This document shows positions 3,456-60,845 of a stretch of 64,000 bases of DNA, one piece after another; within the stretch, counting starts at the first letter, position 1; the number at the start of each line of letters is the position of its first letter. The stretch lies in contig DASSJF010000061.1 of NCBI GenBank assembly GCA_035691305.1, positions 1,329 to 65,328 of the forward strand, given 5' to 3'. This stretch comes from a bacterium (GTDB taxonomy: Bacteria > Sysuimicrobiota > Sysuimicrobiia > Sysuimicrobiales > Segetimicrobiaceae). A program made the position numbers and the translations under genes. The notes beneath the pieces were generated by a model that was not told where the DNA came from, made no database searches, and worked only from the letters and a program-made list of their open reading frames with translations.

Positions 3456-5894
3456 CTACGCTTCCGCGCTCTCCTCGCGCGTCACGATCGGCGCGATCGC
3501 CGACACGCGGTCGTTCGCGTCGAGCTTCTTGATGCGCACGCCCTGCGCCGCGCGGCCGTGCTTCGGAATATCGCTCACGCTCAGACGGCTCACGATCCCG
3601 CGCGCGGTGATCACCAGCACCTCGTCGCCGTCGCTCACGGCGCGCACCGCCACGACCGCGCCGGTCTTCGGCGTGAGGCGGATGTTCTTCACACCGCCGC
3701 CGCCGCGCGACTGCAGGCGGTACTCCTTCAGCGGCGTCCGCTTGCCCGATCCGAGCTCCGTCACCACGAGCAGATCCACGGCACCGGTGCTCACGGCCAT
3801 CCCGACGACGCGGTCCTCCTTGCCGAGCCGCATGCCGCGCACGCCGTGCGCCGCGCGCCCCATCTCGCGCACGTCGGCCTCCTTGAACCGGATCGCCTGG
3901 CCGCGCCGGCTGGCCAGCACGACCTCCTGTTTGCCGTCCGTGAACCGCACGCCGATCAACTCGTCGCCCTTGTCCAGGTTGATGGTCACGATGCCGGCGC
4001 GCTTCGCGTTCAGGAATTCCATGAGCCCGGTGCGTTTCACGTAGCCGCCGGCGGTGGCGAAGAAGAGATACCCTGCGTCCTCGAACGATCGGATGGGGAT
4101 GATCTCCGTGACGCGCTCGCCCTGCGCGAGCGCGATCAGATTGATGACGTTCGTGCCTTTCGCGGTCCGCCCGGCCTCCGGGATGTCGTAGGCCTTGACC
4201 CGGTAGACCTTGCCGCGGTTCGTGAAGAACAGGACGAACGCGTGGTTGGTGGTGACGGAGACGATCTCCACGTAGTCTTCTTCCTTCGTCTCCATCCCCA
4301 TCACGCCGCGGCCGCCGCGGCTTTGCCGCCGGTACGTATCGAGCGGCAGGCGCTTGATGTAGCCTTGGTGCGTGAGCGTGACCACGACGTCGGCGTCCGG
4401 GATCAGGTCCTCTTCCTCGAGCTCGGTCTCCTTGGCCCGGATCTGCGTCCGCCGTTCGTCGCCGTACTTCGCCTTGACCTCGTCGAGCTCGCTCTTGATG
4501 ATCGTCATCAGCCGCCGCGGGCTCTTGAGGATGTCCTCGTACTCGGCGATCGCCTTGATCAGCGCCTTGTACTCCTCGTCGATCTTCTCGCGTTCGAGCG
4601 CCGTCAGGCGCTGGAGGCGCATCTCGAGGATCGCGTCCGCCTGCGGCTCGCTCAGCTTGAACTGCTTCATCAGGCCGGCGCGCGCCGCCGGAACGTCTTT
4701 GGCCTTCCGGATCAGCGCGATCACCTCGTCGAGGAACTTGATCGCGATCTTGAGGCCTTCCAGGATGTGGGCGCGGGCCTTCGCCTTACGCAGCTCGAAC
4801 TCGGTGCGCTTCGTGACCACCGCGCGACGGTGGTCGAGGTAGTGGGTCAGCATCTGCCGCAGGGTCAGCACCCGCGGTACGCCGTCGACGAGCGCCAGCA
4901 TGATCGCGCCGAACGTCGTCTGCAGCTGGGTGTGCTTGAACAGCTGGTTCTGGAGGATCTGCGGGTTGACGTCCCGGCGCAACTCGATCACGATCCGCAT
5001 GCCCCGGCGGTCGCTCTCATCCCGCAGGTCCGAGACGCCGTTCAGCTTCTTGTCGCGCACGAGCTGGGCGATGCGCTCGATCAGCGCGGCCTTGTTCACC
5101 ATGTACGGCAGCTCGGTGACGATGATCGCGACACGGCCGCCGCGCAGCTCCTCGAGCGTCGTCGTCGCCCGGACCACCATGCTGCCGCGCCCTTCCAGAT
5201 AGGCCTGCTTGATGCCGTCCCGGCCGAGGATCTGCCCGCCGGTCGGAAAGTCCGGCCCCTTGACGATCTTCAGCAGGTCGGCGTCGGACAGCTTCGGTTC
5301 ATCGATCAGCGCCGCCAGCGCGTCGACGAGCTCGCCAAGGTTGTGGGGCGGGATGTTGGTCGCCATCCCGACCGCGATGCCGGCCGAGCCGTTCATCAAT
5401 AGGTTGGGCACCCGGCTCGGCAGGACGACGGGCTGCTTGAGGCTCTGGTCAAAATTGGGCTCGAACGGGACCGTCTCTTTGTCGATGTCGGCGAGCAGCT
5501 CCATCGCCATCCGCGAGAGCCGCGCCTCGGTGTAGCGCATCGCCCCCGGCGGATCGCCGTCGACGCTGCCGAAGTTTCCTTGACCGTCGATCAGCGGGTA
5601 GCGAAAGCTGAAGTCCTGCGCCATCCGGACGAGGGCTTCGTAGACCGGTACGTCGCCGTGCGGGTGGTAGCGGCCCATCACGTCGCCGACGACGCGGGCG
5701 CATTTGCGGTACGGCCGGTCGGGGGCAAGGCCCATCTCGGAGGCGCCGAACAGGATGCGCCGCTGCACCGGCTTGAGCCCGTCGCGCACGTCGGGCAGCG
5801 CCCGGCTGACGATGACGGACATCGCGTAGTCGAGATACGACGTACGCATCTCGCGGGCGATCGGTTGGGTAATGATCTTCTCTTCGGCGGCCAT
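3456..5894 (-). CDS. gyrA: DNA gyrase subunit A
   Basis: 812 aa. N-terminus '[30 protein letters not shown]' is the GyrA catalytic-Tyr region. The C-terminal beta-pinwheel repeats are present. Confidence 0.97.
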
Positions 5895-5907
5895 GGCGCG
5901 GCGGGCC

Positions 5908-7941
<2,034 letters not shown>

Positions 7942-8052
7942 TTATAGCATTACCTATAATAACGAAAAAACCGCCTCAGGTCAATCGGCCGAAAGTGGCG
8001 TCGCAACTGGATTTCAGCCATCGGACGCGGGCGGAACTTTAGCGGAGGAACG

Positions 8053-8322
8053 TCACGCGTCGGACCTGGCAAGTTCGGTCCCCGCGTTGGTCACCCGGCG
8101 GACAAGCGTCACAGGAGAAATCGCCGACTCATAGACTCCTCCGGTGGTCACTACTACGGCCTTGCGGTCATGAACGGGAACCTCGAACCGCATCAGGCCT
8201 TGGGCTCTCGCCCTCTCCACAAATCGTTCGTTATCGGAGTTTCCCGCGATCAGACGGGCATCGAAGATACCGATTATATCCGGGATCAGAAGGACGACTT
8301 CTCCGCCGATGTGCACGTACAC
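8053..8322 (-). CDS. DUF370 domain protein (RemA/RemB / YaaB-like)
   Basis: 89 aa. The 'IGGE..V....I..I......A..S........A...G.L........R..VV..GGV..SAI.P.TL..R' pattern matches DUF370. Its position between recF/dciA and gyrB matches B. subtilis yaaB (remB). Confidence 0.7.
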   Translation of the reverse strand: MYVHIGGEVVLLIPDIIGIFDARLIAGNSDNERFVERARAQGLMRFEVPVHDRKAVVVTTGGVYESAISPVTLVRRVTNAGTELARSDA

Positions 8323-8324
8323 GA

Positions 8325-8672
8325 TCAGGCTCGGGGACCGGTGCGATCGGCATTCGCCGCACCGCCACCGGACCCGTCGGATGCGCCGAGCGGACGCATC
8401 GTCAGCTGGATCTCCGCGATTACCCGCTCGCCGGCGCGAGCATTCAGCGCCTCGATCAACGCCGCCCGCTGCATGCCCAGTTCGTAGTAAACCGCAGGAT
8501 GGTCGGTGGCAACGACAAGAGTCTGGCCCCGAACACCGAGCGCGCGGGCATGGCGCGCCTTCGCCGGACCGATCACCACTGGCCAGGCCTCCAGCACGCT
8601 GCCCTGCCGGGCCCGACGCGGCCCGACGAGGCTCGAAAGCGCATCGGACAGCAGTTCCCTAAGCGTGTACAT
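8325..8672 (-). CDS. dciA: DciA (DUF721) replicative-helicase operation/loader protein
   Basis: 'LEAWPVVIGPAKARHARALGVRGQTLVVATDHPAVYYELGMQRAALIEALN' is DUF721-like. Its location between recF and gyrB is syntenic with Mycobacterium Rv0004. The start is taken at the internal Met (8672), which overlaps the recF stop. Confidence 0.75.
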   Translation of the reverse strand: MYTLRELLSDALSSLVGPRRARQGSVLEAWPVVIGPAKARHARALGVRGQTLVVATDHPAVYYELGMQRAALIEALNARAGERVIAEIQLTMRPLGASDGSGGGAANADRTGPRA

Positions 8673-9783
8673 CGGTGCCCGCCTCGATCGCACCACCGCG
8701 GACCATGAACATCCGGAGCGCGACGCCGGCCGCCGGCGGCGGCACCGTATGCGTCAGCAAGACCTGCGGCCCCTCGATCTCCCGCAGCAACATGATCTGG
8801 CGCGCCGGATCAAGGTCGGCGAGTACGTCGTCGAGCAGCAGCACGGGCCAGGTTCCGAGTTCGTCGCGCAAGATCTCCGCCTCGCCGAGCCTGAGACTGA
8901 GCGCGGCCGTGTGCTGCTGGCCTCGAGATCCGAAAGCCCGAAGATCGACGCCGTTCACGCCGATCCGCAGATCGTCGCGATGGGGCCCAACGAGGCTCGT
9001 CCGGCGGCGGTACTCCTCCGCGCGATGCCGGGCCAGCGCGCGCGCCAGCGCGGCGGCCTCACGGCCGTCGCCGGGGCCGGCCGAGACCGGCGCGGGGCCG
9101 CCGGGGTCGTCCGCCGTCGACGAGTAGGTCACGTCCAGCCCTTCGGAACCGTCCGAAACGCGCGCGTGCCGCTTCGCGGCCCGCGCCGCGAGCGCCCGCA
9201 CGAAACCGCGCCGGCGCTCCACCAACGTCGCCCCAAGGGCGACCAGTTGCTCGTCCCACGGCTCGAGCGCCGCACCACCGGCGCCCTCGCCGAGCAGCCG
9301 ATTGCGTTGTCGCACTACCCGGAGATACCGCGTGAGCGCGAAAAAATACGACGGGCTCGCCTGACTGAGCGCGGCATCGAGGAGCCGGCGCCGCGCTCCG
9401 GCCGCACCGCGGATCACGTCGCCGTCAAGCGGCCCCGCCAGCACAATCGCCATCCGACCAAGCAGTTGACCCCGCTGCACGACGACCCCATTGACCTTCA
9501 TGCGCTTCTCGCCCGTCGTACGATCGACGGCGATCTCAAGCACATCCGCCCGCGGATCACGCACCTCGGCCCGTACGTACGCCCGATCCTGGCCGAACCG
9601 CACGAGTTCAACGTCGGCCGAGGCACGAGGGCTCCGGCCGAGCGCCGCGGTGTAAACACTTTCAAGCAAGTTGCTCTTGCCCTGCGCGTTCGCGCCGACC
9701 AACACCGTGATGCCGGCCTCAAACGCGAGGTCCGTCGCCGCGTAGTTGCGAAAGTCCCGAAGCCGCAGCTCAGCGAGCCACAA
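8659..9783 (-). CDS. recF: DNA replication and repair protein RecF
   Basis: 'LRDFRNY' N-terminus and the Walker A 'GANAQGKSNLLESV'. 374 aa. Confidence 0.95.
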   Translation of the reverse strand: MWLAELRLRDFRNYAATDLAFEAGITVLVGANAQGKSNLLESVYTAALGRSPRASADVELVRFGQDRAYVRAEVRDPRADVLEIAVDRTTGEKRMKVNGVVVQRGQLLGRMAIVLAGPLDGDVIRGAAGARRRLLDAALSQASPSYFFALTRYLRVVRQRNRLLGEGAGGAALEPWDEQLVALGATLVERRRGFVRALAARAAKRHARVSDGSEGLDVTYSSTADDPGGPAPVSAGPGDGREAAALARALARHRAEEYRRRTSLVGPHRDDLRIGVNGVDLRAFGSRGQQHTAALSLRLGEAEILRDELGTWPVLLLDDVLADLDPARQIMLLREIEGPQVLLTHTVPPPAAGVALRMFMVRGGAIEAGTDVHA

Positions 9784-9975
9784 CGAGGTAATCCTTGCCT
9801 CCGGCGCCGACGCGGTCGCCCGGCGCGAGCTGCCGCCCGCGCCGTCGCTCGACGGCGCCGTTGACGCGCACGGCGCCCACTTGCACCATCTGTTTGGCGC
9901 GGCCGCCGGTGTCGGCGGCCCCCGCCCACTTTAAGAAATCGCCGAGGGTAATCCGCGGAGTCTCAATCTCCACTT
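9770..9975 (-). CDS. yaaA: S4-domain RNA-binding protein YaaA (RlbA-like)
   Basis: 'ITLGDFLKWAGAADTGGRAKQMVQVGAVRVNGAVERRRGRQLAPGDRV' is an S4-like fold. It lies between dnaN and recF as in Firmicutes. The start is set at the GTG just after the dnaN stop, because the upstream extension is Ser/Thr/Arg-rich junk. Confidence 0.7.
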
Positions 9976-9995
9976 CAACCGTCTCGGACTCCGGT

Positions 9996-11105
9996 CTACG
10001 AATAGACCCGAACGGGCGCGAGGACGTAGACATAGTCGGTGTTGTCGGTCGGGTGCAGCGCGCCCGGGCTGAGCGATCCGGTGAGATCGAAGTGGACGTC
10101 CGGCGCATCGATGTTCGTCAACGCGTCCATGAGAAACTTCGCGTTGAACGCAACCGGAATCGCGTCGCCCTCGACACGGACCTCGATGTCCTCCTGCGCC
10201 TTCCCAACATCCGGCGTGTTGGAAGAGATCGTGAGCGTGCCCTCCGCGGCGTTGAGGCGCACCACATTGGCGGAATCCTTCGCCGTGATGCTGGCCCGGC
10301 GCACACCGCGCAGCAGCCGTTCGGTACCGACCGTGATCCGCTGCTTGAACTCTTTTGGGATCACCTGTTCATAATTCGGGAACTGCCCGGCGATCAGTCT
10401 CGACACAAACCGCATACCCGGAAGCGAAAAGATGAGTTGGTTGTCGTGAGACGCCACCGAGACTTCGCCTTCAACCGAGCCGAGTACCCTCACCAGCTCC
10501 GCCATCGTCTTACTCGGCACGATCGCCGTAACTTTACCCCGGCCGGCGCCGCCCATCTTGGCGCGCCGCACCGCCAACCGGCCTCCGTCCGTCGCGACCA
10601 AGTGTCCTTGGTCACCGTCCACAACGAGGTAAACACCGGTCAGGAACGGTCTGGTTTCATCAGTCGATACGGCAAAACTGGTTTGACGAATCATCGTTCG
10701 TAGCAATCCGGCGTCAAATTTAACAACGACATTGCCTTCGCCGGATGGCATCAACGGGAAATCGCTGGCTGGTAGCCCTAAGATCTCAAACCGCACGTTT
10801 TCGGAGGTAATAACCGCTTTGGATTCACCCTCGGCAACCACCATTTCCAAGGGTGCCTCCGGTAGGTTCGTCACTATATCGGTAAGAATCCGTGCCGGAA
10901 GAGTAACGGCACCGCCTTCTTTGACTGTTCCAGAGACGTAGGCCTCAATACCGAGCTCGAGATCCGTAGCGGCGAGCTTCACGCCGTTTTTACTCGTTTC
11001 GACGAGTACGTTGCCGAGAATAGGCATACTAGCCCGTGGCGAGATGGCGCGGCCAACGGTTTGCACCGCTCTCAAAAGATTGTCTTGAGAGCATTTGAGG
11101 TGCAT
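9996..11105 (-). CDS. dnaN: DNA polymerase III beta sliding clamp
   Basis: 369 aa, three-domain beta-clamp. Begins 'MHLKCSQDNLLRAVQTVGRAI'. Confidence 0.95.
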   Translation of the reverse strand: MHLKCSQDNLLRAVQTVGRAISPRASMPILGNVLVETSKNGVKLAATDLELGIEAYVSGTVKEGGAVTLPARILTDIVTNLPEAPLEMVVAEGESKAVITSENVRFEILGLPASDFPLMPSGEGNVVVKFDAGLLRTMIRQTSFAVSTDETRPFLTGVYLVVDGDQGHLVATDGGRLAVRRAKMGGAGRGKVTAIVPSKTMAELVRVLGSVEGEVSVASHDNQLIFSLPGMRFVSRLIAGQFPNYEQVIPKEFKQRITVGTERLLRGVRRASITAKDSANVVRLNAAEGTLTISSNTPDVGKAQEDIEVRVEGDAIPVAFNAKFLMDALTNIDAPDVHFDLTGSLSPGALHPTDNTDYVYVLAPVRVYS

Positions 11106-11319
11106 TACTTACGCCCTCTCATAAGGTTTTCTTATATAAAGATTCGTCGTAATAGTAGTAGAACCTGTGGATTGTGTGAATATCGCCGGAGAGGCGCATC
11201 AGAAGGCGATTTTGCGCTGTGGATAACCAAATGGATGAAATTTCGCGGATGATCGGGGTTATCCCGATTGTCCCCCGATCGGTGTTTTTGACGGACACGC
11301 GCTCCTGATCGTGCACATA
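11106..11319. other. Candidate oriC (dnaA-dnaN intergenic): DnaA boxes plus an AT-rich unwinding element
   Basis: A perfect DnaA box TGTGGATAA (reverse complement of TTATCCACA) is at 11218-11226. Degenerate boxes are at 11166-11174 (TGTGGATTG) and 11259-11267 (TTATCCCGA). An AT-rich stretch at 11123-11160 ('ggttttcttatataaagattcgtcgtaatagtagta') interrupts an otherwise ~70% GC sequence. Confidence 0.6.
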
Positions 11320-12708
11320 CTATCCCCGACTACCCGCCCGTTCGGTCCGGAAGCTTTCCACAAGACTTTGGACACCGGCGTTCAGATGGGTATCTTCGGC
11401 CAGCGCGTGCTTTACACGATCGCAGGCGTGCATGACCGTGGTGTGGTCCCGCCCGCCGAACTCCTCGCCGATACGGGGTAGCGACGCGTCGGTCAGTTCC
11501 CGGCAGAGATACATGGCAACCTGGCGGGGAAAGGCAACACCCTTGGTCCGCCGCTTCGCCTTCATTTCCTCGATGCGAATCCCGAAAAACTCCGCGACGG
11601 CGCGTTGGATCGCCGGAATGGTGACCGGACGTACCCGTGCCTGCGGCAGAAGCTCCTTTAGCACATCGGTCGCGAGATCCACCGAGATCGGCGTCCGCGT
11701 CATTTCGGCGTGGGCGCGCAGCCGGCTGAGCGCTCCCTCGAGCTCGCGGATGTTGGACGAGATCCGCTGGGCGATGTACTGCGCGACCTCGTCGGGCACA
11801 ACGATTTTGTCCTTTTCGGCCTTCTTGCGAAGAATCGCGACGCGGGTCTCGTAATCCGGCGGTTGGATGTCCGCGATGAGGCCCCATTCGAACCGCGAGC
11901 GCAGTCGGTCTTCGAGGGTCGGAATCTCCCTGGGCGCCCGGTCGCTGCTGATGATGAGCTGCCGGCTCGACTCGTGCAGGGTGTTGAAGGTATGGAAGAA
12001 CTCTTCCTGGGTGCGTTCCTTTCCGGCCAGGAACTGGATGTCGTCGATCGCGAGCACGTCGACATTGCGGTACCGGTGGCGGAACTCCACCATTTTGTCG
12101 TCGCGGATCGCGTTGATCAGGTCGTTCGTGAACCGTTCCGAGGAGACGTACATCGCACGCGCTGACGGTGAATGGGTCAGGACGTAGTGCCCGATTGCCT
12201 GAAGCAGGTGGGTCTTACCGAGACCGACGCCGCCGTAGATGAACAAAGGATTGTACGCACGGGCCGGCGCCTCCGCGACGGCCTTGGCCGCGGCGTGGGC
12301 GAAACGGTTACCGGCGCCGACGACGAAGGTGTCGAACGTGTATTTCCCGGCGAGGTGGCGCGCTTCGACAGGGATCCCGGCCGTGGCCGCGTCGATGCGG
12401 GCGACGGACTGTGTCGGCGCGGTGCGGGTGTTTTGTCCGTTCTGGTCGCTCTCCGTGACGATGAAGCGAATGTCCACGCCCCGGGTCAGGACCTCGCGCA
12501 GCGTCTCCGTGATGAGGCCGCGGTAGCGGCCCTCCAGCCATTCCTTCGCGAACGCGCTCGGCACCGAGAATACGAACACGTCCTGCTCGAGCGCGAGCGG
12601 CTGCATGGCTTTGAGAAACGCTTCAAAACTCGGCTTGCTGAGCTGGCTCTCGATCCGGGTAAGGGCTTCCTGCCAGACCTGGCCGGCTGTAATGCTCTGT
12701 ACGTCCAT
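11320..12708 (-). CDS. dnaA: Chromosomal replication initiator DnaA
   Basis: 462 aa. AAA+ Walker A 'GGVGLGKTHLLQAIG', and the C-terminal domain IV 'RQVAMYLCRELTDASLPRIGEEFGGRDHTTVMHA'. Confidence 0.97.
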   Translation of the reverse strand: MDVQSITAGQVWQEALTRIESQLSKPSFEAFLKAMQPLALEQDVFVFSVPSAFAKEWLEGRYRGLITETLREVLTRGVDIRFIVTESDQNGQNTRTAPTQSVARIDAATAGIPVEARHLAGKYTFDTFVVGAGNRFAHAAAKAVAEAPARAYNPLFIYGGVGLGKTHLLQAIGHYVLTHSPSARAMYVSSERFTNDLINAIRDDKMVEFRHRYRNVDVLAIDDIQFLAGKERTQEEFFHTFNTLHESSRQLIISSDRAPREIPTLEDRLRSRFEWGLIADIQPPDYETRVAILRKKAEKDKIVVPDEVAQYIAQRISSNIRELEGALSRLRAHAEMTRTPISVDLATDVLKELLPQARVRPVTIPAIQRAVAEFFGIRIEEMKAKRRTKGVAFPRQVAMYLCRELTDASLPRIGEEFGGRDHTTVMHACDRVKHALAEDTHLNAGVQSLVESFRTERAGSRG

Positions 12709-39340: not shown

Positions 39341-39363
39341 GCCGGCGCCGCCTCGGGGCCAGG

Positions 39364-39408
39364 CGCCGACGGTGAACGTGCACCGTCGGCACGCCCCCCT
39401 TGGGGGGG
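39364..39408 (+). terminator. Two consecutive GC hairpins after the creatininase stop (terminator-like, no U-tract)
   Basis: GCCGACGGTG-aacgtg-CACCGTCGGC (a perfect 10-bp stem), followed by CCCCCC-tt-GGGGGGG. Confidence 0.4.
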
Positions 39409-39833
39409 AGGTCTTGGTGTCCGCCTAGAATATCCTGATCGCGCGCGCGCCGGCGGCCAGCTTCGGCGGCGGGATTTCTTCCACGAGTTCTTCATGAGAT
39501 CTTCACCCGCGACTGGTACGCTTGCTCTCGGTTGCTGCCGGGCGCCCGGTTGTCTCTGTTCCCCCCTTCCAGGCAGCAGACCCGACAGACGGCCGCGGGA
39601 CCACCCGAACGACCCACCGCGGCCGTCACCCGCCGGGCGCCCGGTCAGGATCCTGTCACGTACGATCCGATGTTCATAGTCATCACCCGCTCCGGCCGCG
39701 TGTGCCTGCGAACACTCGCCCGCGCGGCCCGATTTCATGATTTATTCATCAGTTATTCAACCGCGACCGCTAAGCTACAGATACAACGGAGCGCGAGCGC
39801 CCGCGCGCATCGCGACTCGGATTGGAGGTCCGG

Positions 39834-40799
39834 ATGCGGAAGTCGGTCGCACTCGTACTGGGGGTGCTTGTGCCGCTGCTCGGGCTGGCCGGCGTGGGGA
39901 GCGCGCAGTCCACTGTGCAGGTCCAGGGCACGATCCAGGCGGTCGACTGCCAGGCTCAAACTCTCGTCGTCGCCACCCCGACCTCCACCAACACGATCGC
40001 GGTCGTCCCATACACCGCGGTCCTCGTCGATTCTCGAGCCGTCTCACTGTGCGACCTCCAACAGTACGTCGGCAGCCCGGCGACGATCTGGCTGGTGCCG
40101 AGCGGCAACGAGTTCATCGCGACCCGCATCGACACCACCGCGCAGGCCTCCGTCGCGCCGGTGGCGCTGTCGGCCCAACAGGAAGCCGTGGCTCCGCTCC
40201 CGCTCGTGGGCATCGTGCTCGGCACGATCGTGCTCGCGGGCCTTATCTATCTGCTGGTCCGCGACGGCGATCACTACTACCGGTATCCGTATTACGGCGA
40301 GTATTACCGTCACTATTATCGGCCGGAATACCGGTCGTACGTCGGGTGGTATCCCGTTTCGTGTCCCGTAGTCTACGCCGCGGCGCCGCTCGGCGGCGTG
40401 GTACTCGGCGTCACGGTCTTCAGCGGCGTCGACTATCTGCTCGTGCGCGACCGAGACGGTCGCTACGAACGCTATCCGTATTACGGACCATACCGCGCGT
40501 ACTACTACCGGCCGGAGTATCGAGCGTACGGCGGATCATTCCGCGGCGATGCGCCCGTGCACTACGGCGACACGCGGGGCACGACCGTCTATCAGCGGCC
40601 GCCGCAATACCAGCCGCCGCAGCACCAATACCAGCAGCCGTACAACAACCAGTATCAGCGGCCGCCGCAGTATCAGCAGTATCAACAGTACGCGCCCGTC
40701 CAGAACCGGGGCGGTGGATCTCGAGGCCGCGACACGCGGCAGGTGTGCCAATCGAACGGGCAGGGGCAGTCGTGCTCGGACGGGGCGCATAACCGCTAA
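39834..40799 (+). CDS. Secreted/membrane tandem-repeat protein rich in Tyr/Arg/Pro with a Gln/Tyr/Pro-rich C-terminal tail; no recognisable family
   Basis: ATG with a GGAGG Shine-Dalgarno 5 nt upstream. Signal peptide 'MRKSVALVLGVLVPLLGLAGVGSAQS'. After an approximately 100-aa N-domain come two duplicated modules, each a TM helix, then 'YLLVRD(G/R)D', then 'RYPYYG.Y..YYYRPEYR.Y'. The tail is 'YQRPPQYQPPQHQYQQPYNNQYQRPPQYQQYQQY'. GC3 is strongly coding in this frame. Confidence 0.75.
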   Translation: MRKSVALVLGVLVPLLGLAGVGSAQSTVQVQGTIQAVDCQAQTLVVATPTSTNTIAVVPYTAVLVDSRAVSLCDLQQYVGSPATIWLVPSGNEFIATRIDTTAQASVAPVALSAQQEAVAPLPLVGIVLGTIVLAGLIYLLVRDGDHYYRYPYYGEYYRHYYRPEYRSYVGWYPVSCPVVYAAAPLGGVVLGVTVFSGVDYLLVRDRDGRYERYPYYGPYRAYYYRPEYRAYGGSFRGDAPVHYGDTRGTTVYQRPPQYQPPQHQYQQPYNNQYQRPPQYQQYQQYAPVQNRGGGSRGRDTRQVCQSNGQGQSCSDGAHNR

Positions 40800-40978
40800 G
40801 CGATCGGCGTAGAGCAGGGGGCATCTTGACGGTGGCGGGCCGGCCGGCCCGCCACCGCCGGGTTATCCGGCGAGAATCGCGGCGGGCTCAGAACTCCCGA
40901 TAGGCGATCGCTTCAGTGTTCTTCTTCGGGCATAACCCCGCCGGAGGCCGGGGCCAGGCGGACGTGGAAGCGAATCGC

Positions 40979-58002: not shown

Positions 58003-58765
58003 CCGCGTCGACCCGCATCGCATGCATCTCCAGGAGTTTCGCGCGGACCTTGTTGGCCGCGGCGACGAATTCGACGTGGGAGCGCATCGCCGGATCTCTG
58101 GCGGGCGGCAGGCGCACCGGCACTTCTTCGACGATCTCGCCCGGCCTGGGCGACATGACGAGGATCCGATCGGAGAGGAAAACCGCTTCCTCGATGTCGT
58201 GGGTCACGAGCAGGGCGGTGGCGCGGAGCGTTCGGATCAGGGTGCCCAGCTCGGTCTGCAGGGCCTCTTTGGTCAGTTCGTCTACGCCGGTAAACGGCTC
58301 GTCCATCAGGGCGATCGACGGCTCGTGCACGAAGGCGCGCGCGATCGAGACCCGCCGCTGCATGCCGCCGGACAGTTCGATCGGATAACTCCGCTCGAAC
58401 CCCTTCATGCCGACCATGCCGATCAGCCGGTCGACGGTCCCCAAATCCTGTTTCTTGACGACCTCCAGCGGCAGCTTGACGTTGTCGTAGACGGTCCTCC
58501 ACCGCATCAGGCTCGAATCCTGGAAGACGTACCCGACGACGAACTGCCCGCCGGCCGTCTCCCGGCGGATGCTCCCGCTTCCGGGCTGCTCGACCCCCGC
58601 GATCAGGCGGAGGAGCGTGCTCTTACCGCACCCGCTCGGTCCGACAATCGCGACGGTCTCGCCCGTGCGCACCGACAGGGAGACGTCCTTGACCGCCTGG
58701 ACCTCGTTCCCCTTGACGGTCGTGTAGTGTTTGCTGACGTGCTCCAGGACGACGACGGAGTTCAT
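57995..58765 (-). CDS. ABC transporter ATP-binding protein, NitT/TauT (nitrate/sulfonate/bicarbonate) family
   Basis: Walker A 'GPSGCGKSTLLR', 'LSGGMQRRVSIARA' and 'ALMDEPFTGVD'. Confidence 0.85.
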   Translation of the reverse strand: MNSVVVLEHVSKHYTTVKGNEVQAVKDVSLSVRTGETVAIVGPSGCGKSTLLRLIAGVEQPGSGSIRRETAGGQFVVGYVFQDSSLMRWRTVYDNVKLPLEVVKKQDLGTVDRLIGMVGMKGFERSYPIELSGGMQRRVSIARAFVHEPSIALMDEPFTGVDELTKEALQTELGTLIRTLRATALLVTHDIEEAVFLSDRILVMSPRPGEIVEEVPVRLPPARDPAMRSHVEFVAAANKVRAKLLEMHAMRVDAAT

Positions 58766-58768
58766 GTC

Positions 58769-59554
58769 CTAACTCGACCGGTACCACGGCATGAGCTGCC
58801 GCGCGAGCACCACGACGATGCCGTACAGCAGCAGGCCCAGCGCCGTCAGGATGGTGAACGCGCCGAACGCCGCCACGGTGTTGAACGTATACTGCGAGTT
58901 CAGAATGAGGAAGCCGAGGCCCGCGTTGGAGCTGACGAACTCCGCGACGATCGCGCCGACCAGGGCGCCCGACACGCCGATCTTCAGTCCGTCGAAGAAG
59001 TACGGAAGGGAATTGGGGAGCCGCACCTTGTAGAAGATCGTCGCCCTGCCGGCGCGGAGCGACTGCAGGAGGTAGATCAGGTTGCGATCGACGTCGGTCA
59101 GGCCGGTGCTCACGTTGATGACGATCGGAAAGAACGTGAGGATCACGATCAGCAGGATCCTCGACGTGTTGGTGAAGCCCAGCAGTATGTAGATGATCGG
59201 CGCGATCGCCACCTTCGGCAGTACCTGAAGCGCCACGATGTACGGCATGAGGATCTTGCTCAGGATCGGCGAGAGCGTGATCACGAGGGCGATCGCAAAA
59301 CCCACGACGATGCCGATTACGGAGCCCGTGACGGCCTCGTTCAGGGTGATCAGCGTCTGCTGCAGCCAGTTGACGTGGCCGGTGAAGAAGACTTGCGCGA
59401 TCGCCAAGGGCGACGGGAACAGGTACGCCGGGATTCGCAACAGCTGCACCACGAGCTGCCACAGGACGATGCCGGCGACGAAAGAGAGAATCGGCAGGCC
59501 GTAGTCGGCCAGCCCCGGCAGGCCAAGTTTTCTCGGGCTGCCGATCGGCGCCAC
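58769..59554 (-). CDS. ABC transporter permease, NitT/TauT family
   Basis: BPD_transp_1 protein with six TM segments. Confidence 0.8.
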   Translation of the reverse strand: MAPIGSPRKLGLPGLADYGLPILSFVAGIVLWQLVVQLLRIPAYLFPSPLAIAQVFFTGHVNWLQQTLITLNEAVTGSVIGIVVGFAIALVITLSPILSKILMPYIVALQVLPKVAIAPIIYILLGFTNTSRILLIVILTFFPIVINVSTGLTDVDRNLIYLLQSLRAGRATIFYKVRLPNSLPYFFDGLKIGVSGALVGAIVAEFVSSNAGLGFLILNSQYTFNTVAAFGAFTILTALGLLLYGIVVVLARQLMPWYRSS

Positions 59555-59566
59555 GCCCCAGGCCCG

Positions 59567-60607
59567 CTACGGGTGCTCGGCGAACCGGTTCGTGTAGAGG
59601 GTTGTCGGGCTGAAGGCCTTCTCGATCTTGAACATCGCCTTGAGCTCCGGAAGCGTCGCCGCGACGAGCTGTGGATCGAACCACCCCAGCTGGAGCGGCT
59701 TCATCTTCCGGACCGTCCCGGCGTCCAGCCCGTACTGCGCCTTGAGCGCGACCTTCCACTCCGCCAGCGTCTGATCGTAGTCACGGCCCGGATTCTTGGC
59801 GATGAAGTCTTTGATGCATTGATCCGGCTTGACCACGCACAAGTAAAGCCCTTCGTTGAGCGCGGCGGCGATCGCCCCCGCGGTCCCCGGATTCCTGTCC
59901 ACGAGGCCCTTCTGGACCACCACGGCGCCCAGCGGCGAAGGCATGTGGTAATCGCCGAACAGGAACGATCCGATCTGCTGGCCCTGCTGCTTCGCGACGA
60001 TGTCGAGGCTGGCCAGGCCCCGCGCGAACTCGCAGATGGCGTCGACCCGCTTCTGCATCAGCGCCGGATGGAGCGCGCCGAAGCCGATGTTCTGAATCCT
60101 CACCTTGTCCTTGGCGATCCCCTGCTTCTGGAGGAAGATGTCGAGGTACTGTTCGGACAGGCTGCCGGTCGGGACCCCGATCGTCTTGCCGGCCAGGTCG
60201 CGGGGGGACTTAATGCCGCTCGACTGCAAGAAGATCAGGGCCACCGGATTCCTCGGCTCGTTCCCGGCGATGCCGATGAGCGGGGGCGCGCTGGGGTTCT
60301 TGTCGGCCAGCAGCATCTCGTCCAGGATATCTCCCTGCACGAAGGCGCGGCCCGTCCGGTCGGCCGCGACGGCCTGGACGGCCTGGGAGGTGCCCTCCAG
60401 GATTACGAAGTTCACCCTGAGGTTGTGCTTGGCGAAGATTCCCTCCGCGTCCGCGGCAAAGTCCTGAGGCGCACTGCTGGTAATCCCGCCGACGTAGTCG
60501 TTCACCGTCAGGGGCGTCCCGGGACTCGAGAAGACGGTGCCGTAGGCGGCGGCGACGCCGACGGCAATCACGAGGACCGCGGTCACGGCTCTGAGAACAC
60601 GAGGCAT
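59567..60607 (-). CDS. ABC transporter substrate-binding protein, NMT1/THI5-like (SsuA/TauA/ThiY-type)
   Basis: Signal peptide and a periplasmic-binding type-2 fold. Adjacent to the NitT/TauT permease and ATPase. Confidence 0.75.
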   Translation of the reverse strand: MPRVLRAVTAVLVIAVGVAAAYGTVFSSPGTPLTVNDYVGGITSSAPQDFAADAEGIFAKHNLRVNFVILEGTSQAVQAVAADRTGRAFVQGDILDEMLLADKNPSAPPLIGIAGNEPRNPVALIFLQSSGIKSPRDLAGKTIGVPTGSLSEQYLDIFLQKQGIAKDKVRIQNIGFGALHPALMQKRVDAICEFARGLASLDIVAKQQGQQIGSFLFGDYHMPSPLGAVVVQKGLVDRNPGTAGAIAAALNEGLYLCVVKPDQCIKDFIAKNPGRDYDQTLAEWKVALKAQYGLDAGTVRKMKPLQLGWFDPQLVAATLPELKAMFKIEKAFSPTTLYTNRFAEHP

Positions 60608-60845
60608 CCCATTCCTCCTCTGTTTCCCGGGCCCAGGGAAGGCGGCGGGTTGCGGGCGTCTGGGGTCGGCTCTCGATTCCAGGGGAACCCGCCCCTATCC
60701 TTGCGAGGCGTGATCGCGAACTTGGGGAGATACAGTACCGGGTTCGGCACTCTGCCCGGGGTGCGCCGAGCCGTGGTCGATCGAGTCACCTTTCAGGCCG
60801 AGCTCGACGCACGCCCCGTAGCCTGATGCGTGGAGGGAAGAACCC

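What the first reader, a model, noticed from the sequence alone, without database searches (positions are those of the whole stretch)
39834..40799. Secreted tandem-repeat Tyr/Arg/Pro-rich membrane protein with a Q/Y/P-rich prion-like tail
The protein has a signal peptide and a roughly 100-aa globular N-domain. Two duplicated modules follow, each a TM helix, then YLLVRD(G/R)D, then RYPYYG.Y..YYYRPEYR.Y. A C-terminal tail of (P)PQYQ / QYQQ repeats closes it. The composition (about 15% Tyr in the repeat region) and architecture have no obvious bacterial homolog. Tyr-rich repeats are associated with oxidative cross-linking, adhesion and matrix or amyloid-like assemblies. The gene is preceded by an unusually long 490-bp non-coding region containing hairpins and a direct repeat (GCCGGGCGCCCGGT at ~39540 and ~39635), suggesting complex regulation.
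Basis: seen in the sequence. Interest (0 to 1): 0.75.

Follow-up and report, generated by a model that had tools for sequence, protein, structure and literature searches.

The report
Exported tyrosine-rich repeat protein, uncultured soil bacteria
This is a real, conserved gene for an exported protein found only in one uncultured group of soil bacteria; its two tyrosine-rich repeats, read at first as membrane helices, are more likely a new small beta-sheet domain, and its function is still unknown.

Summary
The ORF at 39834-40799 (+) is a real gene. Residues 1-246 have dN/dS 0.12-0.16 against close orthologues. The search found 219 homologues, all unnamed, from metagenomes and MAGs, some labelled ANGP1, which the taxonomy places in Ca. 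Sysuimicrobiota (CSP1-3).

The signal peptide, the roughly 75-aa N-domain, the two duplicated modules, the Q/Y/P tail and the upstream repeat are all present. The interpretation changes in three ways:
- AlphaFold2 models both "TM helices" as beta-hairpins (pLDDT 92-97). Polar residues are tolerated only at the predicted turns. Module 2 is too polar to span a membrane. Module 1 remains hydrophobic enough to be an anchor.
- The N-domain is a CusF-like OB barrel without CusF's metal ligands.
- The tail is hypervariable, and across the family it is P/Q/R-rich rather than prion-like.

The upstream region holds two copies of a family-specific promoter: three 11-nt-phased TTCAY repeats, then 10 nt, then TAnnnT. 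This resembles an OmpR/PhoB-type operator. A very stable structured leader lies between the two copies.

Best reading: a lineage-specific exported envelope or matrix protein switched on by a response regulator. The function is unproven.

The parts
39480..39522 (+). Distal promoter-like module: three 11-nt-phased repeats (TCCAC, TTCAT, TTCAC), then 10 nt, then an extended -10 (TGGTACGCT)
   Evidence: (period-11 tandem repeat). It is conserved in L001, L007, L008 and L009.
39529..39660 (+). Structured leader, or operator pair. Two copies of the palindrome CCGGGCGCCCGG (39538-39549 and 39633-39644) can pair to close a three-way junction.
   Evidence: The RNA fold is -75.1 kcal/mol with z = -5.6. 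There is no covariation among 4 sequences and no Rfam match.
39734..39776 (+). Proximal promoter-like module: TTCAT-N6-TTCAT-N6-TTCAA, then 10 nt, then TAAGCT (-10)
   Evidence: 2 matches in 64 kb against 0.05 expected by chance; 17 of 33 loci have exactly one match, each on the gene's strand. For the family loci whose upstream sequence was printed it lies about 100-205 nt upstream of the start codon; 14 distinct family promoters share the same spacing.
39784..39828 (+). Short 5' UTR hairpin followed by the Shine-Dalgarno sequence GGAGG (39824-39828)
   Evidence: -26.5 kcal/mol, z = -1.55, so not exceptional. The stem carries a variable-length insertion in L001 and L009.
39834..40799 (+). Coding sequence, 321 aa plus stop. 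It is identical to NCBI 'hypothetical protein VFL28_10980 [bacterium]'.
   Evidence: dN/dS is 0.12-0.16 over residues 1-246 against the four closest orthologues.
39834..39905 (+). Signal peptide (aa 1-24): MRK, a hydrophobic core, and conserved A24|Q25. There is no twin-arginine motif and no lipobox Cys.
   Evidence: Read directly from the sequence. A24 and Q25 are near-invariant. No dedicated signal-peptide predictor was run.
39915..40136 (+). N-domain (aa 28-101): a small OB-type beta-barrel with invariant C39 and C73
   Evidence: AF2 pLDDT ~96. Foldseek matches CusF and SilF at E 3e-4 with TM ~0.7. The Cys pair is invariant in the 45-sequence alignment.
40194..40355 (+). Module 1 (aa 121-174): PxP, a hydrophobic hairpin GIVLGTIVL-AG-LIYLLVRD, then the HYYRYPYYG strand and a Tyr-rich helix
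   Evidence: E127-134, E137-144, E147-152, H155-161, pLDDT 92-97..
40380..40571 (+). Module 2 (aa 183-246): a copy of module 1 with a polar turn (S-G, then D200), ending in the conserved APV(R/H)xGD
   Evidence: 62% identity to module 1. (polar residues at positions 197, 198 and 200). (family median dG +2.7).
40572..40745 (+). Disordered Q/Y/P/R-rich tail of short imperfect repeats. It is hypervariable in length and sequence across the family.
   Evidence: pLDDT < 50. TRF repeats. Family tail length 1-268 aa. dN/dS 0.2-0.5.
40746..40775 (+). C-terminal Cys-x8-Cys loop (C305...C314)
   Evidence: A Cys pair with spacing 6-8 lies in the last 40 aa of 105 of 120 homologues; 108 of 120 have a pair with some spacing between 4 and 11. 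C314 is invariant in the 45-sequence alignment.
40831..40871 (+). Two terminator-like GC-rich hairpins 31 nt after the stop codon, with no U-tract
   Evidence: I4, a perfect 14-nt inverted repeat. (-41.9 kcal/mol, z = -2.2).

Best explanation
The gene encodes a lineage-specific exported protein of the cell envelope or extracellular matrix. It belongs to a group of uncultured soil bacteria that is probably Ca. Sysuimicrobiota (CSP1-3).

Proposed mechanism:
- A Sec-type signal peptide is removed. The mature protein then has four parts.
- (i) A small OB-type beta-barrel with a probable disulfide.
- (ii) One compact domain built from two tandem copies of a roughly 55-aa module. Each module is a very hydrophobic beta-hairpin, a third strand (xYYRYP) and a short Tyr-rich helix. 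The invariant tyrosines clad the aliphatic core.
- (iii) A cationic, disordered P/Q/Y/R-rich spacer whose length evolves quickly.
- (iv) A terminal Cys-x6-8-Cys loop.
- The hydrophobic stretches are therefore structural beta-strands, not membrane helices. Paralogues with a single module would need to pair up to bury the same surfaces, so the module is probably a self-association unit.
- Transcription is switched on by an OmpR/PhoB-type response regulator. It would bind three 11-bp-phased TTCAY repeats that sit where a -35 element would be, exactly 10 bp from a TAnnnT -10. In this orthologue group the promoter is duplicated, and a stable structured leader lies between the two copies.

Shown: the gene is real and under purifying selection; the architecture, the duplication and the promoter motif are conserved; there is no known family and no solved fold for the module.

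Inferred: export, the beta fold (a prediction), the extracytoplasmic location of the whole protein, self-association, the type of regulator, and the structural role.
For: Gene and family:
- dN/dS is 0.12-0.16 over residues 1-246 against the four closest orthologues.
- 219 homologues share the same architecture.

Beta fold rather than TM helix:
- Two independent AF2 runs gave hairpin, strand and helix, twice over, at pLDDT 92-97. One run used the full protein and one an N-domain-less paralogue. In the second run the whole two-module stretch, including the inter-module linker, stays above pLDDT 90, which reads as one compact unit.
- Inside the hydrophobic stretches, polar or charged residues occur almost only at the predicted turns. 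In module 1 they are at 134-136 (8 of 120 sequences). In module 2 they are at 197 (44/110), 198 (23/110) and 200 (92/110), with G/N/D/S followed by G/N/S, which is typical turn chemistry.
- One subclade has 'DG' in the middle of module 1.
- Module 2 has a family median dG of +2.7, and only 7% of members fall below 0.

Extracytoplasmic location:
- Conserved Cys pairs sit both in the N-domain and at the C-terminus.
- A relative carries a Cu_amine_oxidN1 domain (E 6e-36), and its tail contains three Cys-pair repeats.

Promoter:
- The motif occurs twice in the 64-kb window against 0.05 expected, and both copies lie upstream of this gene.
- It occurs exactly once in 17 of 33 loci. Wherever the upstream sequence was read it lies upstream of the family gene.
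- All 14 distinct promoters have the same spacing to TAnnnT, and 9 of them (plus the window's distal copy) carry a TG extension.
- A PHO box is defined as 11-nt direct repeat units, with the core GTTCACC in Streptomyces (PMC4415409).

Genomic setting:
- The gene stands alone with no conserved neighbours.
- Some genomes hold up to 4 paralogues.
Against: - Module 1's stretch (LVGIVLGTIVLAGLIYLLV) has a summed Hessa dG of about -2.8 in this protein and a family median of -1.8; 85% of members fall below 0 (the figure for this protein is my own hand sum). Thirteen of its positions never carry a polar residue. A Sec translocon would be expected to retain such a segment as a membrane anchor.
- K+R counts are 0 before the stretch and 1.8 after it, which fits an N-out, C-in topology.
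- The beta fold is a prediction only. My own covariation test was uninformative.
- No solved structure resembles the module.
- There is no expression, localisation or regulator data.
- The envelope type of this phylum is not described in the two papers checked.
- The window's own assignment to Sysuimicrobiota is inferred from homologues and was not tested.
Confidence: 0.45

Rival explanations
1. It is a bitopic (type I) membrane protein. The OB domain faces outward. Module 1's hydrophobic stretch is a genuine TM helix carrying a GxxxG motif. Everything after it lies in the cytoplasm: the first Tyr/Arg segment, module 2, the disordered tail and the Cys pair. It would act as a surface-displayed or signalling anchor.
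For: - Module 1 has a family median dG of -1.8, and 85% of members fall below 0.
- Thirteen core positions never carry a polar residue, and Ala is held at the 'turn' in 107 of 120 sequences.
- G126-x3-G130 is conserved.
- K+R counts are 0 before the stretch and 1.8 after it.
- Single-module relatives have a long P/A/Y-rich stalk between the OB domain and the hydrophobic stretch, as anchored surface proteins often do.
Against: - AF2 models a beta-hairpin at pLDDT ~96 in two separate runs.
- Module 2 is homologous (62% identity) yet cannot be a TM helix.
- A subclade carries Asp in the middle of the stretch (VDGL). My hand sum for that variant gives a dG of about +1.9 (sequences).
- The residues just after the stretch are acidic (RDxD, and RDDDD in some members).
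- The conserved terminal Cys pair, and the three Cys-pair repeats in P0131, would then sit in the reducing cytoplasm.
Confidence: 0.3
2. The protein is a secreted matrix or adhesion protein whose tyrosines are oxidatively cross-linked (dityrosine), or whose Q/Y-rich tail forms amyloid-like or prion-like assemblies.
For: - The modules are 20% Tyr, and this protein's tail is 25% Gln.
- The tail is predicted to be disordered.
- The tails of two family members match Pfam Extensin_1, best E 3e-10.
Against: - The tyrosines are invariant at fixed positions inside a confidently folded module. That fits a packing role better than free cross-linking sites.
- Family tails are rich in Pro (19%) and Arg (11%) and are hypervariable, which does not suit amyloid or prion-like domains.
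- No laccase, peroxidase or amyloid-export gene is a conserved neighbour.
- The Extensin_1 hits are driven by composition and do not occur in this protein.
Confidence: 0.1
3. It is a periplasmic metal chaperone or metal-binding protein related to CusF/SilF.
For: The best Foldseek matches for the N-domain are CusF and SilF (E 3e-4 to 7e-3, target TM 0.6-0.7).
Against: - Residues 25-105 contain no His and no Met, and the only Trp (W86) is not shown to align with CusF's cation-pi Trp. CusF's Cu/Ag site, as I recall it, is His/Met/Met plus Trp (for the sequence).
- There is no Pfam hit.
- No metal-efflux genes lie nearby.
- OB barrels are a very common fold.
Confidence: 0.03
4. It is a chance ORF, or drifting low-complexity sequence in a GC-rich genome.
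For: The window has many long spurious ORFs.
Against: - dN/dS is 0.12-0.16.
- There are 219 homologues, with about 30 invariant residues in a 45-sequence alignment and 10 in the 120-sequence one.
- A Shine-Dalgarno sequence, a conserved promoter and a terminator-like hairpin are present.
Confidence: 0.01

Closest known systems
CusF / SilF periplasmic Cu(I)/Ag(I) chaperones (small OB-fold barrels)
   Same: The N-domain model superposes on them (Foldseek E 3e-4, TM ~0.7, 75-90 aligned columns). Both are exported single small barrels.
   Different: Sequence identity is 11-16%. There is no Pfam match. The His/Met ligands are absent. This domain has an invariant Cys pair instead, and it is fused to the modules and tail.
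PHO-box promoters, i.e. OmpR/PhoB-family response-regulator operators (S. coelicolor PhoP core GTTCACC; 11-nt direct repeat units)
   Same: Both have direct repeats with an 11-nt period and a TTCAC/T core. Here the repeats lie where a -35 hexamer would be, a fixed 10 nt from the -10 (definition from PMC4415409).
   Different: The regulator is unknown. No pst or pho gene with this motif was seen in the sequence held. There are three repeat units, and the third is TTCAA or TTCGA. In this orthologue group the whole module is duplicated.
Chromo / Tudor / SH3-like small beta folds (three-stranded meander plus a helix)
Tyr/Pro-rich structural proteins cross-linked through tyrosine (plant extensins; Bacillus spore-coat CotC/CotU, recalled from memory)
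   Same: Exported or surface-located, very Tyr-rich, repetitive, with Pro-rich spacers.
   Different: There is no sequence relationship. Here the tyrosines are invariant parts of a folded module. Cross-linking is untested.
Single-pass membrane anchors with GxxxG motifs, and glycine-zipper lipoproteins (Pfam Gly-zipper_Omp, Gly-zipper_YMGG, Rick_17kDa_Anti)
   Same: Module 1 has a 19-residue hydrophobic stretch with G-x3-G, and sequence-based tools would probably call it a TM helix.
   Different: There is no Pfam hit to any glycine-zipper family. Its homologous twin (module 2) is too polar. AF2 models a beta-hairpin.

Membership tests
CusF/SilF metallochaperones | Small five-stranded OB barrel | tested here: met
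   Foldseek E 3e-4, target TM 0.67-0.72. The query is a predicted model with pLDDT ~96.
CusF/SilF metallochaperones | Met/Met/His metal site with a capping Trp (recalled from memory) | tested here: not met
   Residues 25-105 contain no Met and no His (sequence).
CusF/SilF metallochaperones | Sequence-family match (Pfam) | tested here: not met
   No such hit at E <= 10 for this protein or at E <= 1 for 120 homologues.
Bitopic or polytopic membrane protein (TM helices) | A hydrophobic segment of about 19 aa with negative insertion free energy | tested here: inconclusive
   Module 1 has a family median of -1.8 (85% below 0), so it meets the test. Module 2 has a median of +2.7 (7% below 0), so it does not (simple Hessa sum).
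Bitopic or polytopic membrane protein (TM helices) | The segment is helical | tested here: not met
   AF2 gives beta-hairpins at pLDDT 92-97 in two runs. This is a prediction, not a measurement.
Bitopic or polytopic membrane protein (TM helices) | Experimental topology | not testable with these tools
   This needs reporter fusions or protease accessibility assays.
Glycine-zipper outer-membrane or lipoprotein families (Pfam) | Match to Gly-zipper_Omp, Gly-zipper_YMGG or Rick_17kDa_Anti | tested here: not met
   No such hit. There is also no lipobox Cys in the signal peptide.
Extensin-like or dityrosine cross-linked structural proteins | Extensin repeat signature | tested here: not met
   Pfam Extensin_1 hits only 2 of 120 homologues, in their tails, and does not hit this protein.
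Extensin-like or dityrosine cross-linked structural proteins | Tyr-Tyr cross-links | not testable with these tools
   This needs biochemistry.
Prion-like or Q/N-rich aggregation domains | Q/N-rich composition with few charges and few prolines, conserved across the family | tested here: not met
   This protein's tail is 25% Q. Family tails are P 19%, Q 14%, R 11%, G 10%, with lengths of 1-268 aa.
OmpR/PhoB-type (PHO-box-like) activated promoter | Direct repeat units with an 11-nt period | tested here: met
   TRF period 11. The motif is specific to the family promoters. The definition is from PMC4415409.
OmpR/PhoB-type (PHO-box-like) activated promoter | Repeats take the place of the -35 element at a fixed distance from the -10 | tested here: met
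   No sigma-70 -35/-10 pair was found. All 15 motif instances have TAnnnT exactly 10 nt after the third repeat.
OmpR/PhoB-type (PHO-box-like) activated promoter | Bound by a response regulator; shared with pst/pho genes | not tested
   No whole genome of the lineage was available. A metagenome scan with the strict motif returned only chance hits in AT-rich contigs.
Known RNA families (Rfam) for the leader | Covariance-model match | tested here: not met
   No hit at gathering score in the window. In 39341-39840 the only hit is a chance match at E 0.71.

The most novel reading that the evidence does not exclude
The roughly 55-aa module would be a previously undescribed extracytoplasmic fold: an all-hydrophobic beta-hairpin clad by invariant tyrosines. 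In sequence it passes for a TM helix. Two copies, in one chain or from two chains, would assemble into a self-associating unit. The family would then form a regulated, phylum-specific envelope or matrix layer in Sysuimicrobiota. It would be switched on by a dedicated two-component system through a promoter that is almost private to the family.
Probability: 0.25. Interest if true: 0.6.

Novelty: new variant of a known kind. Interest (0 to 1): 0.4.

Why it matters
- It defines an unnamed protein family restricted to a widespread but uncultured soil phylum. The family has a module that matches no Pfam or NCBIfam family and no solved structure.
- It is a concrete case where hydrophobicity-based TM calls and structure prediction disagree. 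That affects how such proteins are annotated.
- The family-specific promoter with 11-nt-phased repeats gives a handle on a regulon in organisms that cannot yet be grown.
- The practical importance is limited until expression, location and function are measured.

Tried and rejected
- Mutual information with APC correction on 120 sequences (Neff ~52), to test hairpin against helix contacts. The top pairs were phylogenetic noise and uninformative.
- Foldseek against afdb50: the library was unavailable.
- Foldseek against the PDB for the module-only model: no hit at E <= 1e-3.
- Profile search with the N-domain alone: it returned only fragments or frameshifted copies of the same family, so it gave no functional lead.
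- PDB sequence profile search: only chance hits to TM subunits at E >= 2.
- Metagenome scan for the strict promoter motif, to find other regulon members: all 45 hits lay in contigs of 17-46% GC and none was next to a family gene. These are chance matches.
- RNAalifold on the leader, with 4 sequences: the pairs are invariant, so there is no covariation evidence either way.
- Rfam, at gathering score and at the E-value threshold: nothing.
- Exact-protein contig look-up for the window's own protein: not on record.
- Literature searches for the YPYYG motif and for the envelope of Sysuimicrobiota: nothing relevant.
- P0144, in which a hydrophilic hairpin replaces the hydrophobic one. I did not use it as evidence, because a K-rich to R-rich composition switch at the junction suggests a chimeric assembly.
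- Gene-neighbourhood inference: neighbours differ between loci, apart from local synteny among close orthologues.
Full report
**1. Observation**

The window has an ORF at 39834-40799 (+), 321 aa. It starts at ATG, with GGAGG 5 nt upstream; an in-frame TTG at 39822 is less likely to be the start. The protein is identical to an NCBI MAG protein named only 'hypothetical protein VFL28_10980 [bacterium]'.

- An N-terminal MRK plus hydrophobic stretch ending in a conserved A|Q.
- A folded N-domain.
- Two modules that are a true tandem duplication: 62% identity over 52 aa, E 1e-10 with composition-adjusted BLASTP.
- 26 Tyr in 128 module residues (20%), and a tail that is 25% Gln.
- Short QYQ/PPQY repeats.
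- GCCGGGCGCCCGGT at 39537-39550 and 39632-39645, inside a 493-nt non-coding stretch.

**2. It is a real, conserved gene**

The search found 219 homologues at E <= 1e-3, all unnamed. Alignments of 45 and of 120 sequences keep the same order of parts. About 30 residues are invariant among the 45 sequences, including C39, C73, Y151-P152-Y153, R213-Y214-P215-Y216 and C314; 10 remain invariant in all 120.

Against the four closest orthologues, dN/dS is 0.12-0.16 for residues 1-246 and 0.2-0.5 for the tail.

**3. Distribution**

- A scan of one genome per species (185,579 species) found 27 loci in about 15 MAGs, with up to four paralogues per genome.
- A profile of the two-module region, searched against 1.84 billion cluster representatives, found only 45 clusters at E <= 1e-3.
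- Several source MAGs are labelled 'Bacillati bacterium ANGP1'. The taxonomy resolves this name to Ca. Segetimicrobium genomatis, phylum Ca. Sysuimicrobiota (CSP1-3). Other MAGs carry vague labels such as bacterium, Bacillota or Firmicutes.
- That the window itself belongs to this phylum is an inference from these homologues.
- There is no paralogue elsewhere in the window.

**4. Known families**

- There is no Pfam or NCBIfam hit for this protein.
- No consistent Pfam hit appears across 120 homologues. The matches are weak TM-like hits plus Extensin_1 in two tails.
- There is no sequence match in the PDB.

**5. Structure prediction**

With the 120-sequence alignment, AF2 gives the following:
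- pLDDT ~96 for residues 28-101, a beta-barrel.
- pLDDT 92-97 for residues ~121-245.
- pLDDT below 50 for most of the tail, from about residue 249.

A second run used a natural paralogue that lacks the N-domain. It gave the same result, with the whole two-module stretch, including the inter-module linker, above pLDDT 90, which reads as one compact unit.

Foldseek matches the N-domain to CusF and SilF (E 3e-4, TM ~0.7), and more weakly to an S-layer self-assembly domain. However, residues 25-105 contain no His or Met, so the CusF metal site is absent.

**6. TM helix or beta-hairpin?**

Points for a TM helix in module 1:
- The family median summed Hessa dG is -1.8, and 85% of members fall below 0.
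- Thirteen positions never carry a polar residue.
- G-x3-G is conserved.
- K+R counts are 0 before the stretch and 1.8 after it.

Points against:
- Module 2 is homologous but has a median dG of +2.7, and only 7% of members fall below 0.
- In both modules, polar residues are tolerated only at the predicted turn. These are positions 134-136 in module 1, and 197 (G/N/D/S), 198 (G/N/S) and 200 (E/D/Q) in module 2.
- One subclade has 'VDGL' in the middle of module 1.
- The flank after the stretch is acidic (RDxD, up to RDDDD).
- Conserved Cys pairs lie at both ends of the protein. A relative with an N-terminal Cu_amine_oxidN1 domain (E 6e-36) has three Cys-pair repeats in its tail. If these are disulfides, both ends are outside the cell, so the number of membrane spans must be even. 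Since module 2 cannot span, that number is zero.

I therefore favour the all-exported beta-module model (about 0.45) over the bitopic model (about 0.3). The translocon argument for module 1 is a real objection, and only an experiment can settle it.

**7. Variants of the architecture**

- Single-module proteins: OB domain, P/A/Y-rich linker, one module, and a C-terminal WC...WCR.
- Proteins that lack the OB domain.
- A different N-domain with a weak T2SSC-like match.
- The Cu_amine_oxidN1 fusion (also seen at L027 and L032).

The module is the constant element. It always comes before a variable, Pro-rich, cationic disordered tail. Single-module proteins would expose the hydrophobic hairpin unless they pair up. 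This is the basis for proposing self-association.

**8. Context and regulation**

Neighbouring genes are metabolic and differ between loci, so the gene stands alone. Two GC-rich hairpins follow the stop codon.

The upstream region is conserved among close orthologues. The strongest signal is TTCAY-N6-TTCAY-N6-TTC.
- It occurs twice in the window, at 39480 and 39734, against 0.05 expected by chance.
- It occurs exactly once in 17 of 33 loci, each time on the gene's strand. In the loci whose upstream sequence was read it lies about 100-205 nt upstream of the family gene's start.
- In all 14 distinct family promoters, and in the window's distal copy, TAnnnT follows exactly 10 nt after the third repeat. 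Ten of these 15 instances carry a TG extension.
- No canonical -35/-10 pair is present.

Direct repeats with an 11-nt period that occupy the -35 position are the hallmark of OmpR/PhoB-type activators. PHO boxes are defined in this way, with the core GTTCACC in Streptomyces (PMC4415409). Whether the signal here is phosphate is unknown. A metagenome scan for further targets returned only chance hits in AT-rich contigs.

Between the two promoter copies, 39529-39660 folds as RNA at -75.1 kcal/mol (z = -5.6). It forms a three-way junction closed by pairing of the two palindromes. The palindromes are conserved in L001 and L009, and one copy is present in L007. Four sequences give no covariation, and no Rfam family matches. 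The element could equally be a pair of DNA operators. It remains unexplained.

**9. Verdict**

Three parts of the interpretation need revision:
- This is not a two-TM membrane protein.
- The tail is a hypervariable spacer rather than a conserved prion-like domain.
- Homologues exist, but only in one uncultured lineage.

The most likely role is a regulated, exported structural or adhesive envelope protein built around a new Tyr-clad beta module. Function and location are inferred, not shown. Interest is moderate. The family and module are new, and the promoter is unusually specific to the family. There is, however, no evidence yet for an unusual mechanism.

Noticed in passing
window 3456-12708 (- strand): gyrA (3456-5894) and dnaA (11320-12708) are confirmed by Pfam. 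ORFs between them have the sizes expected for gyrB, recF and dnaN. The window therefore probably lies next to the chromosomal replication origin, about 27 kb from the finding.
   Followed up: partly
window 39529-39660: A very stable predicted RNA three-way junction (-75.1 kcal/mol, z = -5.6) is closed by two identical 12-nt palindromes. It lies between two copies of the same promoter module. The first palindrome plus its downstream T-rich run also scores as terminator-like. Whether this is an RNA leader, an attenuator, a small RNA or a DNA operator pair is undecided.
   Followed up: partly
loci L007, L023, L031, L033 (one MAG); L022, L024, L025, L029 (another MAG): Up to four diverged paralogues of the family occur per genome, at unlinked sites. 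Many but not all carry the TTCAY promoter.
   Followed up: partly
L027 and L032, upstream of position 4001; protein P0131: In some genomes the family protein is fused behind Cu_amine_oxidN1 ('stalk') domains. In P0131 the tail carries three repeats of a roughly 30-aa unit, each with a Cys pair.
   Followed up: partly
protein P0144: This protein has a Lys-rich N-terminal part with a hydrophilic hairpin. It joins module 2 exactly at 'YIVTxD|AYGH'. It is probably a chimeric assembly and was not used as evidence.
   Followed up: no
window 39365-39400: Two adjacent hairpins lie just after the upstream creatininase-like gene. One is a 13-nt inverted repeat; the other is CCCCCC-TT-GGGGGGG. They are probably that gene's terminator.
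   Followed up: no
window 58022-60826 (+) and 8506-9864 (+): Long ORFs of 934 and 452 aa have no Pfam hit at E <= 1e-5. They may be spurious frames in GC-rich DNA or uncharacterised genes.
   Followed up: no
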